A stretch of DNA of 64,000 nucleotides, from NCBI RefSeq assembly GCF_056746865.1, contig NZ_JBWKMP010000003.1, one strand, 5' to 3'. Made by a program: the position numbers and the translations under genes. The DNA comes from a plasmid. The notes beneath the pieces are model-generated. The model did no database searches and was not told where the DNA came from. It saw only the letters and a program-made list of their open reading frames with translations. Within the stretch, counting starts at the first letter, position 1, and every line of letters begins with the position of its first letter. Below are positions 7,517-32,150 of the stretch, in pieces.

Positions 7517-8323
7517 GTGGAAAATACCAAGAACATTCAATATCGCTTGCGTAACGGCCTGCTGGTGGATGTAAACGATGATATGTCCCTGCCCTTTGCC
7601 ACCATTGAGCGAACCATCCTTACATACCTGGGCTTAGACGAAGAGTTAGATAGTGAGAATGGCATTGCTATCTGGCGTGACGGAAAAACGGGAGTCAGAC
7701 GTTTTATTACGGCAAGAGGCATTCAGTGCACACAGGAAGAATTGTTTGAACTGGCGCAGTCTTATGGATGCATCGCGTTAGATCCCCTGTATGACCCAGC
7801 CATAGCACAACAACTCATTCGAGAGCTGTCGCTTTCGGTCACGCCAATAATCTTCCGCCAGGGAACCTTAACCGGCACATGGCGTGTAGAACGCATCTCT
7901 AAATATCAGCCATATAATATCCATTTGAACGGCACTATTACTGGTGTGGATCAACCAGTAGCAGGTGAAAACAAAGACCTGGAACTTGCAGTAATGATGG
8001 CAGCTTGTCGCGTGCTTGGCCTGGGCAAGCAGATGTTTATCCATTTCCCAAACGGCGCGGAAGGCGAAGTAGAGCTGATTTCCTGCGACTTTTCCTTAAC
8101 CTGGATGCTTGATGAATTCCTGGACAAAACAGTATTCCGTGCTGAAGAACTGGATATGTATGTCACCTCAAGTATTCCTAATGACGTGAAAGTTGAGGCC
8201 ATCGCTACAGCCAGGGCGAAATGCCGTGCGGCGATTGCAGAACAGGCCAAAGAAGAACAGTCCGATGAAGTCGCGGCAGATGTGGAGGCAGAGGTAGCGG
8301 AGGATGCTGATGCTGACGCCTAA
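7517..8323 (+). CDS. hypothetical protein with acidic C-terminal tail
   Basis: GTG start with GGAG Shine-Dalgarno; 268 aa; ends in an Asp/Glu/Ala-rich tail. Confidence 0.45.
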   Translation: MENTKNIQYRLRNGLLVDVNDDMSLPFATIERTILTYLGLDEELDSENGIAIWRDGKTGVRRFITARGIQCTQEELFELAQSYGCIALDPLYDPAIAQQLIRELSLSVTPIIFRQGTLTGTWRVERISKYQPYNIHLNGTITGVDQPVAGENKDLELAVMMAACRVLGLGKQMFIHFPNGAEGEVELISCDFSLTWMLDEFLDKTVFRAEELDMYVTSSIPNDVKVEAIATARAKCRAAIAEQAKEEQSDEVAADVEAEVAEDADADA

Positions 8324-25715: not shown

Positions 25716-25818
25716 GAAAACACACAGTTGCGCCCTGGCATTATCGTGGGGTATATTTCTACGGCACCTTAGAAAAACGGGTGCCGGGATTGGAACCCCG
25801 GATAATGTCAAAGGCGAC

Positions 25819-25846
25819 ACAGACGCCGAACGCGTCTTTTTTTGTG
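25819..25846 (+). terminator. hairpin with T-run between target site 1 and the c4-like RNA
   Basis: AGACGC-cgaac-GCGTCT followed by TTTTTTGTG; short stem. Confidence 0.35.
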
Positions 25847-25892
25847 TCATGCCATCGCACAGCCATACTTAGCGTTTAGCTCAGAGATCAAT

Positions 25893-25972
25893 GGTAGTGC
25901 TGGCTGGGCTGCCGAAAGGCAGGCCGGTTCCCTTTGACGCCGGTAGTTCCAACCCAGTCAGTGCTACCGCCA
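25893..25972 (+). ncRNA. c4-like antisense regulatory RNA (immI-type)
   Basis: About 80 nt; acceptor-like stem GGTAGTGC / GTGCTACC followed by G-CCA; internal GNRA hairpin CTGCC-gaaa-GGCAG; single-stranded CCCTTTGAC and GTTCCAACC complementary to sites at 25787-25814 and 25975-26020. Confidence 0.4.
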
Positions 25973-26028
25973 TTGAGATTGGAACCTCACGCGGTAGCTC
26001 CTTAACTTAGTCAAAGGAGGCTGCCAAT

Positions 26029-26244
26029 ATGGCTACTATCCCTACCCCAACTCATTCTGAATTTATCTGGCGTTTCTATTCCTGCCAAAAACACCTTTAT
26101 ATCTGCGTAATGGCTGCTACCGAAGCAGAGGCGCGCTCATACCTTCCCGAAGAACCCTGCATTTTTGCTGCTCGCTTCACTCTTGATGCGATGGAGATCC
26201 TCAATTACTGGAATCTGCCAATGAACTGCGTGGAGGTGCACTGA
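26029..26244 (+). CDS. Icd-like small protein, translationally coupled to ant
   Basis: 71 aa; AAGGAGG Shine-Dalgarno lies inside the predicted antisense target; stop overlaps the ant ATG. Confidence 0.45.
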   Translation: MATIPTPTHSEFIWRFYSCQKHLYICVMAATEAEARSYLPEEPCIFAARFTLDAMEILNYWNLPMNCVEVH

Positions 26245-27185
26245 TGAATCTGTCCATCTCTCAAAAAGCGACAATGACCAGCATTGAGATCGCGGAACTG
26301 GTAGGAAGTCGCCCAGATAGTGTGAAGAGAACTATCGAAACACTGGCTAAAAAGAGTGTGATTCAATTTCCACAATCTGTGGAAATTGAAAATAAACAAT
26401 CAGTTGGCCCTCGTCGATTTTCCAAGGCTTACATCTTTGAAGGCGAACAAGGAAAACGAGACAGCATCATTGTCGTCGCGCAGCTCTCTCCGGAATTTAC
26501 CGCCCGGCTGGTGGACCGCTGGCGCGAACTGGAGAATGCCCGGGTACAGTTAAAATCCAAAGCCGAAATCCTGGCCGAAATGGCGCAAATGCATCTTGAG
26601 CATGAACGCCGGATCAACGCCGTTAATGCCCAGGTAGCCGAAGTATCGGCACAAGTGTCCAGGGTCACCGAAACACTTGAGCAGATCAAGAAAGGCAATA
26701 TTCCAGAAGGCTACATTGGCTATCGCCAGTTGGCGGCAAAATGCGGCCTGACTGAAGCCAAATGCCGCAACCTGGTCAACGCTTACCGGATACCCACTGA
26801 TACGCATGAGTTTTTAACTCCCGACGGTTTGCTTGCGCGACGCTCCATTGTGGCCCTGGCCCCCTTCCGGAAAGCCTTTAAGCAGGTTATGTCGGAGGCA
26901 GAACCACGTAACAAACGCTGGTATCATCCCAGGATGGGGCTATTTCAGGCCATTCACCATCCTGTGCCTGAAAGTCCAAAGGCAAACCTGTCGTTGCATA
27001 CCGCCAGAGAGAAGATTAAAACAGGGTATGCAACCGTATGCCGTCGAGCATCCTGGCCTGAAAGTGTCTGGGTATGGCCCGAAAGAGGCTCACGGAAAAA
27101 CTGGCGCACCATTCGCGACGGCAAGATCTGTGCGATTGATTTACAGCCAGAAGATGTAGCAGCGACCGACTGGATTGTTAGTTAA
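26244..27185 (+). CDS. antirepressor-like protein (Rha-type N-terminal domain)
   Basis: N-terminal TSIEIAELVGSRPDSVKRTIETL resembles the Rha / phage-antirepressor N-domain; occupies the ant position. Confidence 0.55.
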   Translation: MNLSISQKATMTSIEIAELVGSRPDSVKRTIETLAKKSVIQFPQSVEIENKQSVGPRRFSKAYIFEGEQGKRDSIIVVAQLSPEFTARLVDRWRELENARVQLKSKAEILAEMAQMHLEHERRINAVNAQVAEVSAQVSRVTETLEQIKKGNIPEGYIGYRQLAAKCGLTEAKCRNLVNAYRIPTDTHEFLTPDGLLARRSIVALAPFRKAFKQVMSEAEPRNKRWYHPRMGLFQAIHHPVPESPKANLSLHTAREKIKTGYATVCRRASWPESVWVWPERGSRKNWRTIRDGKICAIDLQPEDVAATDWIVS

Positions 27186-27223: not shown

Positions 27224-27562
27224 GTGACCGGACACAGCAAAATGTATGCCACGAAAAAAATTGATTTCACTTATTCTTCCGCCACAATTGAGCGGCGCTT
27301 CACCCTCATTAGAGAGTTGGAACTGTCAAAAGTCTGGTATCAAATTCTACTGGATGAAGAGTTCTCACTGATGATAATGGCTGAAAAAGAAGCAATGCCG
27401 AATGACCGGCATAAAGTCATTGCCAGCCTTGACCTGGTGACAAACAGATACTGGGAGACAGAGGAACTGCGTGAAGCGGGAGTAATTCGTGACCTGATGG
27501 AGAGTTCCGTTCCCCGCCGCTATCGTGCGGGAAACGAAATCTCCGTGATTAAAGGGGCTTAA
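27224..27562 (+). CDS. hypothetical protein (start uncertain)
   Basis: 112-aa track ORF; the true start may be the ATG at 27242. Confidence 0.35.
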   Translation: MTGHSKMYATKKIDFTYSSATIERRFTLIRELELSKVWYQILLDEEFSLMIMAEKEAMPNDRHKVIASLDLVTNRYWETEELREAGVIRDLMESSVPRRYRAGNEISVIKGA

Positions 27563-27951
27563 AGCTCACCAGCACGCTGTTTTTCAAGCGTAGATTTAAC
27601 ATTGGGCGCTTTCCCTTTAAAAGAATGGAAAGTGCCACATTTTTCTGTTTTAACCTCGCGCAGAGCTTCGCCATCGGCGTTCTGCCATTGATGAGATAAC
27701 GTCATATCACCGCGAGAAGGAACATCCAGCGAGTACAACGTGTAAGTTCCCCCCATCTCGGCATACTCCTGGAACACATAGCTCATTACGTCAGATTCAG
27801 TTTTCCGGTGCGCGTTATCGACCTTATTCCCATTCAGAAATATGGCGTTCGGATAGATTTTTATATCAAACCTACCGCACTTCACTTGTAAATTCCCGGC
27901 GTGAGCGATCAAAGGGAAAGCTGCCAATAAAGCAATAGCTAATCTTTTCAA
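27559..27951 (-). CDS. secreted protein
   Basis: N-terminal signal peptide MKRLAIALLAAFPLIAHA. Confidence 0.5.
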   Translation of the reverse strand: MKRLAIALLAAFPLIAHAGNLQVKCGRFDIKIYPNAIFLNGNKVDNAHRKTESDVMSYVFQEYAEMGGTYTLYSLDVPSRGDMTLSHQWQNADGEALREVKTEKCGTFHSFKGKAPNVKSTLEKQRAGEL

Positions 27952-27971
27952 TTCTGCCTCCGCTGCGTAAC

Positions 27972-28592
27972 TTATTGCCCGTATTGTTTACACCATTGCT
28001 CTGCCATTTGTGGGGCTAAAGGCCCAGCCACTGCGCTGTATTCTGCTGTTTTGCTTTGCACGCATGAGGCAGATGGTTTTTTATTGCGCTGTTCCTTGAG
28101 TTGTTTTTCATAGGCAACGATGGCATCGAAACCAGCTACATCTTCCTCCCTCATGAACCCTTTCTTGATCAGAAACTGCTGACCTTCCGGCACCAATGCT
28201 AGAGCATACAACGGCTGCAACAGCTCCCCCAATCCTTCCCGGCTATAAACTTGAAACTGCATCCAGCTTTTACTTAACGCTGTCATAGTGTCTTTGGTGG
28301 AATAGCCAGCCTTGCGTATAGCCTTGTCTAATCGATCTGCTGAATACGCAAACAAACAGAAATCGCCCTTTCCTGTAAACCCCGGTTCAACCGGTTGCAA
28401 CGTGATATTTTCTTTTTCGCAAAAGTCTATAAATTCATCAGGTCTATCGGTTTTATAGTCCCGCAATACCTTCAGTCCAGCCTCATACTTTGCAGGTAAC
28501 GCGCCTGCATAGGCAGCATTAAGAGAAACTCCCCCCAATATAACCGCGAGCACTGCTCCCAAAACCCTTAACTTCACAAAACCATCCTTCAT
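27972..28592 (-). CDS. secreted protein
   Basis: Start at the internal ATG; signal peptide MKDGFVKLRVLGAVLAVILGGVSLNAAYA. Confidence 0.5.
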   Translation of the reverse strand: MKDGFVKLRVLGAVLAVILGGVSLNAAYAGALPAKYEAGLKVLRDYKTDRPDEFIDFCEKENITLQPVEPGFTGKGDFCLFAYSADRLDKAIRKAGYSTKDTMTALSKSWMQFQVYSREGLGELLQPLYALALVPEGQQFLIKKGFMREEDVAGFDAIVAYEKQLKEQRNKKPSASCVQSKTAEYSAVAGPLAPQMAEQWCKQYGQ

Positions 28593-28802
28593 GTAAACAA
28601 ACTGAAGTTTTATGTTACAAAAGCAAACATCTACGCCAAAATGACTTAGGCCAAATTCAGCGCGAATAAAAAAATCAAAAAAATTGTTGACACTATTCTG
28701 GAAATCACAATCTGGACAAAATCCATTGCGCAAACGGCTCCCGTTGAAGGTTCTTTTGACGACTAACTTTCAGCCGATGCGCGGTAGGGAGTCATAACGC
28801 CA

Positions 28803-28832
28803 AAGCAGGCCGCCATGTGCGGCCTTTTTTTG
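28803..28832 (+). terminator. intrinsic terminator with no upstream plus-strand ORF
   Basis: AGGCCGC-catgt-GCGGCCT followed by TTTTTTTGTG. Confidence 0.5.
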
Positions 28833-28857: not shown

Positions 28858-29511
28858 ATGCAAAAGATCGCAATATTCAGTCTTTCTACTAACAAGCCGC
28901 TGATGGCTACGGCAGTCCTGAAAGACGGCGCGCTTGTAATTGACAAAGTAAAGCCGCTCCCTGCATCTGCTATTGAACAAAAACGAAAAATTCCACCAGC
29001 AATTGCCGAGCTGCGTAAAAGTGAATTTAAGGTGCTGGTTGACGAAATCACGCCAACCATTTCAGCCGGTACAGGTGCCAGCCAGGTAACATTAAAAACA
29101 CGGCACGCCGACGGCAGAGCAGCGATCATTGTCGGCATGGAGAGATACCGGGAGCTGAAACTACAAAGGCTGCTATCCCTGCCTGACAAGAACAAAGGGG
29201 CATTTGAGATCCCCGACTCTATCGTCGATACCGAATACAACGGCAACGGTGAAGAGGTTTATCGAGTTAACTGGCAAGATATCCGACCAGAGCACATCCT
29301 GATGATTCTGTGCTGCTATGCAACGGTATACCACAATGTTGCCAGCGCGGATTACCTGAAACAAATGACAGGAGCGGTAGAGAAAGAAAACAAAGCAGGG
29401 ATAATGGCCTCGTTCCTGTCCATTATCAGCGATCAAAAAGCTAAAGCAGGAAATACCCAACCAAAATCGCTGGCCGGGCAAGTAATTGATGAAGATACGG
29501 TGATACTTTAA
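28858..29511 (+). CDS. hypothetical protein
   Basis: 217 aa; ATG with upstream GGAG. Confidence 0.5.
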   Translation: MQKIAIFSLSTNKPLMATAVLKDGALVIDKVKPLPASAIEQKRKIPPAIAELRKSEFKVLVDEITPTISAGTGASQVTLKTRHADGRAAIIVGMERYRELKLQRLLSLPDKNKGAFEIPDSIVDTEYNGNGEEVYRVNWQDIRPEHILMILCCYATVYHNVASADYLKQMTGAVEKENKAGIMASFLSIISDQKAKAGNTQPKSLAGQVIDEDTVIL

Positions 29512-31395: not shown

Positions 31396-31776
31396 TCATA
31401 CACCAACCAGGCTTTCAAGAGGAATGCCAAACTGGGAATGTAAACGACGAATCATAGGTAACGTTAAATTTCGTGTTCCATTTAGCACTTCGTAAACACG
31501 ATTTGACTTACCAATCGCCGGTTCCAGATCCTTCACGGTCAGCCCTTGCTGTTCCATACGGAATTTAATGGCCTCAATAGGTGATGGTGGCTCAATTGGG
31601 TAATGTTTTTTCTCGTACTCCTCAATGAGAAGACACATGACCTCAAAGAAATCACCTTCCGGGGTGTTCATTTCCGGTTCGTTATCGAACATCGGTTCGA
31701 CCGCACGCAGTGCGGCCTCATAATCTTGTTCTGTACGGATAGGTTTAATGTTCATTAATTCCAAAGGAAAGCCCAC
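31396..31776 (-). CDS. HigA/YgjM-like HTH protein (extra antitoxin-like regulator)
   Basis: MNIKPIRTEQDYEAALRAVE.. N-domain plus C-terminal HTH (GKSNRVYEVLNGTRNLTL). Confidence 0.5.
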   Translation of the reverse strand: MGFPLELMNIKPIRTEQDYEAALRAVEPMFDNEPEMNTPEGDFFEVMCLLIEEYEKKHYPIEPPSPIEAIKFRMEQQGLTVKDLEPAIGKSNRVYEVLNGTRNLTLPMIRRLHSQFGIPLESLVGV

Positions 31777-31805
31777 TTGTTAAGTGGGCTTTTTGTATGT
31801 GTTTA
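31777..31805. terminator. bidirectional-looking hairpin
   Basis: AAAGCCCACTT-gtta-AAGTGGGCTTTTT. Confidence 0.35.
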
Positions 31806-31811
31806 ACTATA

Positions 31812-32150
31812 TCAGGCTGCTTTTTTATTCAGGTTCCGCTGAGAAATAAATTTTTCAGCAGTATTGATACGACTTAACTCTTCCTGAACGCGCATATCAT
31901 TTTCGACTTCCCACAGGTCTACTGCGGTCTGAAGATTAATCCAAAAATCTACAGAAGTATCGAATGCTTTTGCCAGGCGATATGCCATATCCATCGTTAG
32001 CTTACGATTGTTATTAACAAGAGCACTTACGGTGTTACGATGAACATGAAGTATTTCTGCTAACTCGTTGATCTTAAGCTCTAACGGCTCCAGGTATTCG
32101 TACAGCAGGATATCACCTACAGTCGTCGGTTTTCTGGTTGCCTGTTTCAT
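31812..32150 (-). CDS. higA: HigA antitoxin (HTH_XRE)
   Basis: TVGDILLYEYLEPLELKINELA...DFWINLQTAVDLWEVEN follows the HigA pattern; immediately downstream of higB. Confidence 0.7.
   Translation of the reverse strand: MKQATRKPTTVGDILLYEYLEPLELKINELAEILHVHRNTVSALVNNNRKLTMDMAYRLAKAFDTSVDFWINLQTAVDLWEVENDMRVQEELSRINTAEKFISQRNLNKKAA

What the first reader, a model, noticed from the sequence alone, without database searches (positions are those of the whole stretch)
27559..28592. Pair of secreted proteins as candidate superinfection-exclusion factors
Two adjacent leftward genes encode proteins with classic signal peptides and no other recognisable features, placed just after the immI-like module. 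P1 encodes a periplasmic exclusion function (Sim) in a comparable context. This is a positional guess only.
Basis: inference. Interest (0 to 1): 0.4.

Follow-up and report, generated by a model that had tools for sequence, protein, structure and literature searches.

The report
Exported protein pair in sim slot
Two adjacent genes of a D6-like (P1-family) E. coli phage-plasmid encode a conserved pair of exported proteins of unknown fold that sit where relatives carry a P1 simB-like "superimmunity" gene, so they are credible but untested candidates for blocking entry of a second phage.

Summary
Two tandem leftward genes, here called wB (27972-28577, 201 aa) and wA (27559-27951, 130 aa), each begin with a classic Sec signal peptide. 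They lie just after a confirmed immI module (C4 RNA, icd, ant).

Both genes are real. dN/dS is 0.08-0.16, and the cassette is in 69 of 5,426 complete E. coli genomes, nearly always on ~90-kb plasmids.

No Pfam, NCBIfam or PADLOC family matches, and no PDB or BFVD fold. PHROGs places them in two families of unknown function.

Comparative genomics gave four new results:
- wB and wA are fused into one protein in Enterobacter and metagenomic relatives, so they work together.
- The pair fills the slot where phage D6 has its simB-like gene. D6 still keeps the first ~16 codons of wB.
- wB/wA homologues share operons with true SimB homologues in several diverged elements, including a wB-SimB-wA trio.
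- The slot is a mosaic hotspot.

Neither protein resembles SimA, SimB or SimC in sequence or profile. The window has no SimB, and no function could be tested.

Verdict: a new variant of the sim-type locus. Periplasmic superinfection exclusion is the leading hypothesis, at about 0.4.

The parts
27972..28577 (-). wB: gene for a 201-aa exported protein (mature form 177 aa, predicted all-helical). An alternative ATG lies at 28592. The RefSeq annotation starts at 28733.
   Evidence: ORF and sequence. PHROG 12786, E 1e-101. Start position conserved in relatives. dN/dS 0.13-0.16. AlphaFold2 pLDDT 80.9, pTM 0.71, nine helices.
28506..28577 (-). wB signal peptide (24 codons): MKLRVLGAVLAVILGGVSLNAAYA, with predicted cleavage before GALP.
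   Evidence: Read from the sequence. The same architecture is present in the wB-family members whose N-termini are intact. The first ~16 codons are shared at DNA level with D6 orf79.
27559..27951 (-). wA: gene for a 130-aa exported protein (mature form 112 aa, predicted beta-rich with one helix). TTG start.
   Evidence: ORF and sequence. PHROG 13864, E 1.6e-88. dN/dS 0.08-0.16. AlphaFold2 pLDDT 70.7. Fused to wB in P0022 and P0027.
27898..27951 (-). wA signal peptide (18 codons): MKRLAIALLAAFPLIAHA, with predicted cleavage before GNLQ.
   Evidence: Read from the sequence. In the fusions the wA domain begins at this predicted mature end.
27952..27971 (-). 20-nt spacer between wB and wA containing the wA ribosome-binding site (GGAGG at 27957-27961). 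The tight spacing implies one operon.
   Evidence: Read from the sequence.
28578..28735 (-). wB leader and presumed promoter region, with the AAGGA ribosome-binding site at 28585-28589. It is alignable with D6 across its whole length but poorly conserved across the family.
   Evidence: Alignments. No strong sigma-70 consensus was found, so the promoter is inferred, not shown.
25887..25974 (+). C4 antisense RNA of the immI module (context).
   Evidence: Rfam RF01695, 77.1 bits, gathering score 45.
26029..27185 (+). icd-like gene (26029-26244) and ant anti-repressor gene (26244-27185) of immI (context).
   Evidence: ORFs. Annotation of the identical plasmid and of D6.
27224..27562 (+). pmgF-like gene, convergent with wA; the two stop codons overlap by 4 nt. 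This is the left border of the variable slot.
   Evidence: ORF. 79% identity to the D6 pmgF-like protein.
28858..29511 (+). mat-like (maturation control) gene, divergent from wB. This is the right border of the variable slot.
   Evidence: ORF. D6 annotation. mat lies next to wB in all 17 IMG/VR loci.

Best explanation
wB and wA form one operon. Each product is made with a cleavable Sec signal peptide and is released as a soluble, probably disulfide-bonded protein into the periplasm of the cell carrying the phage-plasmid. The two act together, probably as a complex.

They are one allelic form of the variable 'sim-type' accessory locus of P1/D6-family phage-plasmids. Across the family this locus is built from three shuffled exported parts: wB, wA and SimB.

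The most likely role is Sim-like superinfection exclusion. The periplasmic pair would meet the injection machinery or the DNA of an incoming related phage after adsorption and stop genome entry into the cytoplasm.

Shown here:
- the gene structure;
- the signal-peptide features;
- purifying selection;
- fusion of the two proteins in relatives;
- occupancy of the D6 simB slot;
- co-operonic linkage with SimB homologues.

Inferred:
- export and disulfide bonds;
- complex formation;
- expression in the lysogen;
- the exclusion phenotype and its target.
For: Exported pair:
- Signal peptides are read and are conserved in homologues.
- Cys pairs are invariant.

Functional unit:
- The genes are 20 nt apart, with a ribosome-binding site for wA in the spacer.
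- Natural fusions exist: P0022 (277 aa, Enterobacter-type D6-like plasmids) and P0027 (281 aa).
- The adjacent wB-wA arrangement is kept at 29-38% identity in a Vibrio plasmid.

Sim linkage:
- D6 has a simB-like gene in the same slot between pmgF/orf80 and mat and retains the wB 5' end.
- L024, L025 and L027 have wB followed by a SimB-like gene.
- L007 has SimB followed by a wB::wA fusion.
- L037 has wB, SimB and wA tightly packed.
- A Citrobacter phage-plasmid has a secreted protein X, then wB, then SimB, then icd and KilA-N.
- All these relationships are significant by BLASTP.

Location and distribution:
- The pair lies next to immI. P1 simABC also lies next to c4-icd-ant, with SimC annotated 'superimmunity'.
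- The family is almost confined to ~80-100-kb phage-plasmids.

The slot behaves as an accessory hotspot:
- PLSDB holds 68 plasmids with wA/wB DNA and 56 with the D6-type gene.
- One locus has a 3-gene insertion in the slot.
- PMC9603915 lists simABC among eight hypervariable regions of P1-like plasmids.

From my own knowledge, not checked here: P1 Sim is a Sec-processed protein that blocks infection after adsorption but not after transfection (Kliem & Dreiseikelmann 1989; Maillou & Dreiseikelmann 1990).
Against: - There is no similarity to SimC, the only Sim protein annotated as causing superimmunity, nor to SimA, SimB or D6 orf79.
- The association is with SimB, whose own role is only 'putative accessory'.
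- The window has no SimB or SimC.
- No match to any known defence or exclusion family (PADLOC, Pfam, NCBIfam).
- No recognisable promoter or P1 C1 operator, so expression in lysogeny is unknown.
- Some relatives carry inactivated copies: a nonsense codon in L015 wA, pseudogenes in Vibrio and truncated remnants. The function is therefore dispensable.
Confidence: 0.4

Rival explanations
1. The pair is a lysogenic-conversion or envelope-protection module unrelated to phage entry. It would protect or modify the host envelope, for example as an immunity or inhibitor protein against peptidoglycan hydrolases, colicins or contact-dependent and type VI effectors, or as a fitness factor in the gut.
For: - Small, soluble, disulfide-bonded periplasmic proteins are typical of immunity and inhibitor proteins; both products have signal peptides and conserved Cys.
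- wB-like genes also occur on non-phage plasmids beside replication genes and an autotransporter, and alone on an IncF virulence plasmid near sslE.
- No exclusion phenotype is known for any family member.
Against: - No toxin or effector gene is adjacent in the window or in any relative.
- The strongest recurring neighbours are SimB homologues and immI/mat genes of P1-family elements.
Confidence: 0.25
2. The pair serves the phage's own lytic cycle, for example as a periplasmic regulator of lysis timing or of injection and maturation, linked to the divergently transcribed mat gene. It would not act on competitors.
For: - mat is the invariant divergent neighbour of wB in all 17 IMG/VR loci and lies near a distant wB-like gene in L010.
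- The wB-mat intergenic region holds a highly conserved structured element. This suggests coordinated control.
Against: - The slot is replaceable: D6 lacks wB and wA yet is a viable phage.
- wA carries a nonsense codon in L015.
- In P1, simA, simB and simC are non-essential for plaque formation (PMC10695390).
- Presence/absence variation and mosaicism are typical of accessory genes, not core genes.
Confidence: 0.15
3. The ORFs are not functional genes. They would be chance ORFs or decaying remnants, and the signal-peptide-like N-termini would be fortuitous.
For: - No database family has a known function.
- Some relatives are frameshifted or truncated.
Against: - dN/dS is 0.08-0.16 over dS 0.2-1.8.
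- Full-length conservation down to 25-35% identity in Citrobacter and metagenomic plasmids; the Vibrio copy is related but disrupted.
- Conserved Cys and motifs such as GYSxxDT.
- A strong ribosome-binding site.
- A confident helical model for wB.
- Fusion proteins preserve both domains.
Confidence: 0.02

Closest known systems
Phage P1 simABC operon (SimC = superimmunity protein; SimA and SimB = putative accessory proteins)
   Same: - An operon of small proteins that all begin with signal-peptide-like N-termini.
- It lies beside the c4-icd-ant immI module.
- It is non-essential and hypervariable among relatives (PMC9603915).
- SimB homologues sit in the same operons as wB/wA homologues in several elements.
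   Different: - wA and wB have no BLASTP or profile similarity to SimA, SimB or SimC.
- The window has no SimB or SimC.
- The operon is convergent with ant-pmgF and divergent from mat; P1's sim operon is divergent from c4.
- No phenotype is known for wA or wB.
Phage D6 orf79 (298-aa 'putative superimmunity accessory function protein', SimB-like N-domain plus a C-terminal extension)
   Same: - It occupies exactly the same slot between pmgF/orf80 and mat.
- It shares the upstream region and the first ~16 codons with wB.
- It is exported.
- In L024, L025 and L027 the homologous 281-aa gene follows wB in one operon.
   Different: - The body of the protein is unrelated to wA or wB.
- D6 has one gene where the window has two.
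Other envelope-located superinfection-exclusion proteins of prophages and phages (T4 Imm/Sp, T5 Llp, phi80/N15 Cor, HK97 gp15, P22 SieA). This comparison rests on my own knowledge.
   Same: The proposed logic is the same: a phage-encoded protein in the cell envelope blocks genome entry or receptor use by related phages.
   Different: - Those proteins are inner-membrane proteins or lipoproteins.
- wA and wB have cleavable signal peptides, no lipobox and no membrane segment, so they should be soluble.
- No Pfam or PADLOC hit to any such family.
- wA and wB are a two-protein unit that is sometimes fused.
Periplasmic lysozyme inhibitors (Ivy, MliC/PliC)
   Same: They are small, Sec-exported, disulfide-bonded periplasmic proteins. 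An inhibitor of the injection transglycosylase Sit would be an attractive exclusion mechanism.

Membership tests
P1 SimC (Sim superimmunity protein) | Sequence or profile homology to SimC | tested here: not met
   BLASTP E above 5. hhalign of the wA and wB family profiles against SimC gives probability at most 0.3%.
P1 SimC (Sim superimmunity protein) | N-terminal Sec signal peptide, hence a periplasmic product | tested here: met
   Met at the sequence level only. The n/h/c regions and A-x-A sites are read and are conserved in homologues. No predictor or experiment was available.
P1 SimC (Sim superimmunity protein) | Encoded beside the immI (c4-icd-ant) module | tested here: met
   C4 RNA at 25887-25974, with icd, ant and pmgF immediately upstream of wA. 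The orientation differs from P1.
P1 SimC (Sim superimmunity protein) | Confers exclusion of P1-type phage after adsorption when expressed | not testable with these tools
   Needs expression and phage challenge.
SimB family (P1 SimB, D6 orf79 N-domain; PHROG 14329/13054) | Sequence or profile homology to SimB | tested here: not met
   BLASTP gave only short non-significant hits, best E 0.36. hhalign against D6 orf79 gave probability at most 0.3%. wA and wB hit different PHROGs.
sim-type variable locus of P1/D6 phage-plasmids (membership by gene neighbourhood) | Occupies the same slot as, or shares an operon with, a SimB homologue in related elements | tested here: met
   D6 slot. L024, L025 and L027. 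L007. L037. Citrobacter L036. BLASTP matrix.
PHROG 12786 (wB) and PHROG 13864 (wA), both of unknown function | Full-length HMM match | tested here: met
   E 1e-101 over residues 1-206 and E 1.6e-88 over residues 1-130.
Known anti-phage defence and exclusion families (PADLOC-DB, Pfam) | HMM match to any model | tested here: not met
   PADLOC gave 0 families at E up to 1. Pfam gave only sub-threshold noise. None of the 15 wB-family members hits Pfam.
Periplasmic lysozyme inhibitors (MliC/PliC, Ivy) | Family HMM match or fold match | tested here: not met

The most novel reading that the evidence does not exclude
wB, wA and SimB together make up a previously unrecognised, modular periplasmic superinfection-exclusion system of P1/D6-type phage-plasmids. 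The trio is seen intact in L037. Gene fusion, gene fission and swapping of components would set which related phage-plasmids are excluded. If so, the slot would be a specificity locus for competition between phage-plasmids, and it would open a route to the still-unknown mechanism of P1 Sim.
Probability: 0.3. Interest if true: 0.6.

Novelty: new variant of a known kind. Interest (0 to 1): 0.4.

Why it matters
P1 'superimmunity' (sim) was described in 1982. To my knowledge its mechanism is still unknown, and SimB has no assigned role.

This work shows that two uncharacterised exported proteins are regular operon partners of SimB, or replace it, across E. coli, Shigella, Salmonella, Enterobacter, Citrobacter and Vibrio plasmids. 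That defines a small, testable module with natural 'experiments' already in hand: fusions, two-gene forms and three-gene forms.

D6-like phage-plasmids occur in about 1% of complete E. coli genomes and sometimes carry resistance genes. A locus that decides which related elements can enter a cell would therefore affect their spread.

If the pair does not exclude phage, it remains a conserved periplasmic cargo of unknown fold that is worth characterising. It would not be a major surprise.

Tried and rejected
- **Homology to P1 SimA, SimB, SimC and D6 orf79.** BLASTP and hhalign found none. A tempting short match, wA GTYTLYSLDVPSRGD against D6 orf79 GTYFSWDLPRGNRGN, scored probability 0.3% and was dropped.
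- **Family libraries.** Pfam, NCBIfam and PADLOC gave nothing. PHROGs gave only 'unknown function'.
- **PDB sequence profile search.** Nothing.
- **tblastn against 50,697 GenBank phages.** No hit for either protein.
- **Promoter and operator scans.** No sigma-70 consensus upstream of wB. No P1 C1 operator in the window. A P1 late-promoter-like TGACT box upstream lacks a -10 element (read by eye).
- **Low-GC island.** Not seen; GC is 0.42-0.48 against about 0.48 in the flanks.
- **Phase variation at the G6 run in wA.** Rejected. No locus examined is frameshifted at the run, and the only defect found is a nonsense codon elsewhere, in L015. The frameshifted database proteins are rare and may be assembly errors.
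- **The search for related loci with the broad alignment.** Failed for lack of conserved stretches. It was repeated with the close alignment.
- **Papers.** The P1 genome paper and the D6 genome paper are not in the held library.

Full report
**What the window is.** The region is 100% identical to E. coli plasmid NZ_LR890273.1 (92.8 kb, non-mobilizable) and close to many other 88-95-kb plasmids. The only GenBank phage with DNA similarity is the P1-family plasmid-prophage D6. Gene order matches D6: Ref, icd, ant, pmgF-like, [slot], mat, then the genes annotated as similar to P1 genes 26 and 25. Rfam confirms the immI module, with C4 antisense RNA at 25887-25974 (77 bits, gathering score 45) preceded by an isrK-type sRNA.

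**Checking the observation.** Two tandem minus-strand ORFs lie at the reported coordinates.

- wA (27559-27951, 130 aa) has a TTG start, with GGAGG 5 nt upstream. Its N-terminus is MKRLAIALLAAFPLIAHA|GNLQ.
- wB ends at 27972.
- The GTG at 28577 has AAGGA 7 nt upstream and is the start position conserved in relatives. It gives MKLRVLGAVLAVILGGVSLNAAYA|GALP.
- The longer RefSeq start (28733) is not frame-conserved in D6 or L014.
- Neither protein has a lipobox or a second hydrophobic segment.

Both genes are real:

- They give full-length PHROG matches.
- dN/dS is 0.08-0.16 for wA and 0.13-0.16 for wB against diverged alleles.
- Mature wA keeps two invariant Cys. wB keeps an invariant Cys pair plus a second pair in its C-terminal tail.
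- The cassette is present in 69 of 5,426 complete E. coli genomes, 66 of them on plasmids.

**No known family or fold.**

- Pfam, NCBIfam and PADLOC gave no hits. A PDB sequence profile search also gave nothing.
- AlphaFold2 gave a confident all-helical model for mature wB (pLDDT 80.9, pTM 0.71). For wA it gave a moderate beta-rich model (pLDDT 70.7).

**The family is tiny and tied to phage-plasmids.**

- The word-indexed search found 7 wB clusters and 11 wA clusters, all from enterobacterial contigs, the longest about 90 kb.
- An exhaustive profile search of 1.84 billion representative proteins found only 20 wB relatives.
- In PLSDB, wB is encoded on 69 plasmids. Nearly all are 80-100 kb and non-mobilizable. 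They come from Escherichia, Shigella, Salmonella, Enterobacter, Citrobacter and one Vibrio.

**The two proteins are one functional unit.** Two of the distant relatives, P0022 (277 aa) and P0027 (281 aa), are natural fusions. Each carries an N-terminal wB core, a short linker and a wA domain. The wA domain starts exactly at wA's predicted mature end. P0022 sits in the same slot next to mat in 83-88-kb D6-like elements, including Enterobacter pJBIWA008_2. A Vibrio parahaemolyticus plasmid keeps the order wB-like then wA-like at 29-38% identity, although both copies are disrupted there.

**Link to sim.**

1. In D6 the slot holds orf79, annotated as similar to P1 simB. It is 52% identical to SimB residues 28-111.
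2. The D6-window DNA homology runs from mat through the intergenic region into the first ~16 codons of wB. The annotated N-terminus of D6 orf79 (VKLMVLG...) is therefore a remnant of the wB signal peptide.
3. In IMG/VR loci L024, L025 and L027, wB is followed by the 281-aa SimB-like gene instead of wA.
4. L007 encodes a SimB homologue (E 3e-18 against P1 SimB) followed 3 nt later by the wB::wA fusion.
5. L037 encodes wB-like (206 aa), SimB-like (105 aa) and wA-like (134 aa), tightly packed. All three have signal peptides.
6. A 98.8-kb Citrobacter freundii phage-plasmid encodes, on one strand, a secreted 123-aa protein, a wB-like protein, a SimB-like protein (42% identity, E 4e-31) and then icd-like and KilA-N genes.

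A BLASTP matrix confirms all these relationships. wB, wA and SimB are thus a recurrent, shuffled set of exported proteins. The window carries the wB+wA form without SimB, and there is no SimA, SimB or SimC homologue anywhere in its 64 kb.

**The slot is an accessory hotspot.**

- PLSDB holds 68 records with wA/wB DNA and 56 with the D6-type gene.
- wB alleles differ far more (dN 0.24) than wA (0.02) or ant (0.04-0.08). wB also has two alternative C-terminal tails.
- L015 has three extra genes inserted between wA and pmgF.
[quoted passage not shown] That plasmid is hit H24.
- PMC9603915 lists simABC among eight hypervariable regions of P1-like plasmids.
- PMC10695390 scores simA, simB and simC as non-essential.

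**What argues against a Sim-like role.**

- Neither BLASTP nor profile comparison links wA or wB to SimA, SimB, SimC or D6 orf79.
- The neighbourhood link is to SimB, annotated only as a putative accessory protein. SimC is the one annotated as conferring superimmunity.
- No promoter or operator could be recognised, so the timing of expression is unknown.
- Some relatives are inactivated.
- wB-like genes also occur on ordinary Rep3-type plasmids and on an IncF plasmid.

**Conclusion.** The pair is a two-component, Sec-exported module belonging to the sim-type variable locus of P1/D6 phage-plasmids.

I put periplasmic superinfection exclusion at about 0.4. Envelope protection unrelated to phage entry is about 0.25, a role in the phage's own cycle about 0.15, and a non-functional pair about 0.02. 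The remainder covers functions not considered here.

What is known of how P1 Sim acts (a Sec-processed protein; block after adsorption but not after transfection) is from my own knowledge of Kliem & Dreiseikelmann 1989 and Maillou & Dreiseikelmann 1990. I could not check it here.

Noticed in passing
window 28725-28832 (+ strand), between wB and mat: A roughly 105-nt non-coding block is much better conserved than the flanking genes. It is nearly identical in D6, L014, L025 and L028, and still about 85-90% identical in the Enterobacter element, where mat is only 73% identical at the protein level. On the + strand it is predicted to fold into a multi-stem structure. It ends in a GC hairpin (28807-28825) plus T7, an intrinsic-terminator-like site about 30 nt before the mat start codon. 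It could be a small RNA, a leader or attenuator for mat, or a stop for ant-operon read-through running antisense to wA/wB. Rfam gave only a weak isrK-like hit (E 0.68), and no covariation was detectable.
   Followed up: partly
window 27749-27754 (minus-strand G6 run inside wA, codons EMGG): Several database relatives of wA are split or truncated at or just after the conserved EYAEM motif, which abuts this homopolymer (P0012-P0015, P0017, P0018). All loci I could read are in frame there. The common L014-type allele did not match the pattern used to locate the run. These cases are probably sequencing errors or sporadic inactivation, not phase variation.
   Followed up: partly
L015 5036-7040 (IMG/VR D6-like contig), between wA and pmgF: Three extra genes on the opposite strand (209, 361 and 101 aa) are inserted in the slot. 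PADLOC gave no meaningful hit. In the same locus wA carries an in-frame stop codon (E62*). This shows the slot accepts cargo.
   Followed up: partly
window 25764-25842 (+): An isrK-type Hfq-binding sRNA (61 bits, gathering score 50) lies immediately upstream of the C4 RNA in the immI region.
   Followed up: no
L001 (phage D6) 7969-8034, annotated start of orf79; window 28593-28733: There are two likely annotation errors. The annotated N-terminus of D6 orf79 (VKLMVLGTALAAKMVRYGVNEM) is a relic of the wB signal peptide; the real SimB-like signal peptide starts at the internal MFFIKNGKRF. The 253-aa RefSeq model of wB (start at 28733) is probably about 50 codons too long.
   Followed up: yes
L029/L030 (P1-like contigs with RepL/ddrB) and L031-L033 (Klebsiella lambdoid prophages), around position 8000: 5'-truncated remnants of the wB::wA fusion lie next to a Zeta_toxin/AAA_33 gene pair. 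In Klebsiella they also lie next to an AAA_15 + DUF4435 pair, which by my own recollection resembles the PARIS defence system (not tested here). The surrounding accessory region looks defence-rich.
   Followed up: partly
L038 (E. coli IncF plasmid NZ_OZ039654.1) 3926-4531: A stand-alone wB-like gene (45% identity) sits on a 168-kb conjugative IncF plasmid among phage and transposase fragments and near sslE. It is probably a captured piece of a phage-plasmid.
   Followed up: no
window 31396-32150 (-): Two small helix-turn-helix-like ORFs lie here. The matching region of the identical plasmid is annotated as an HTH protein plus a HigB-family toxin. D6 has a different toxin-antitoxin pair at this position.
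   Followed up: no
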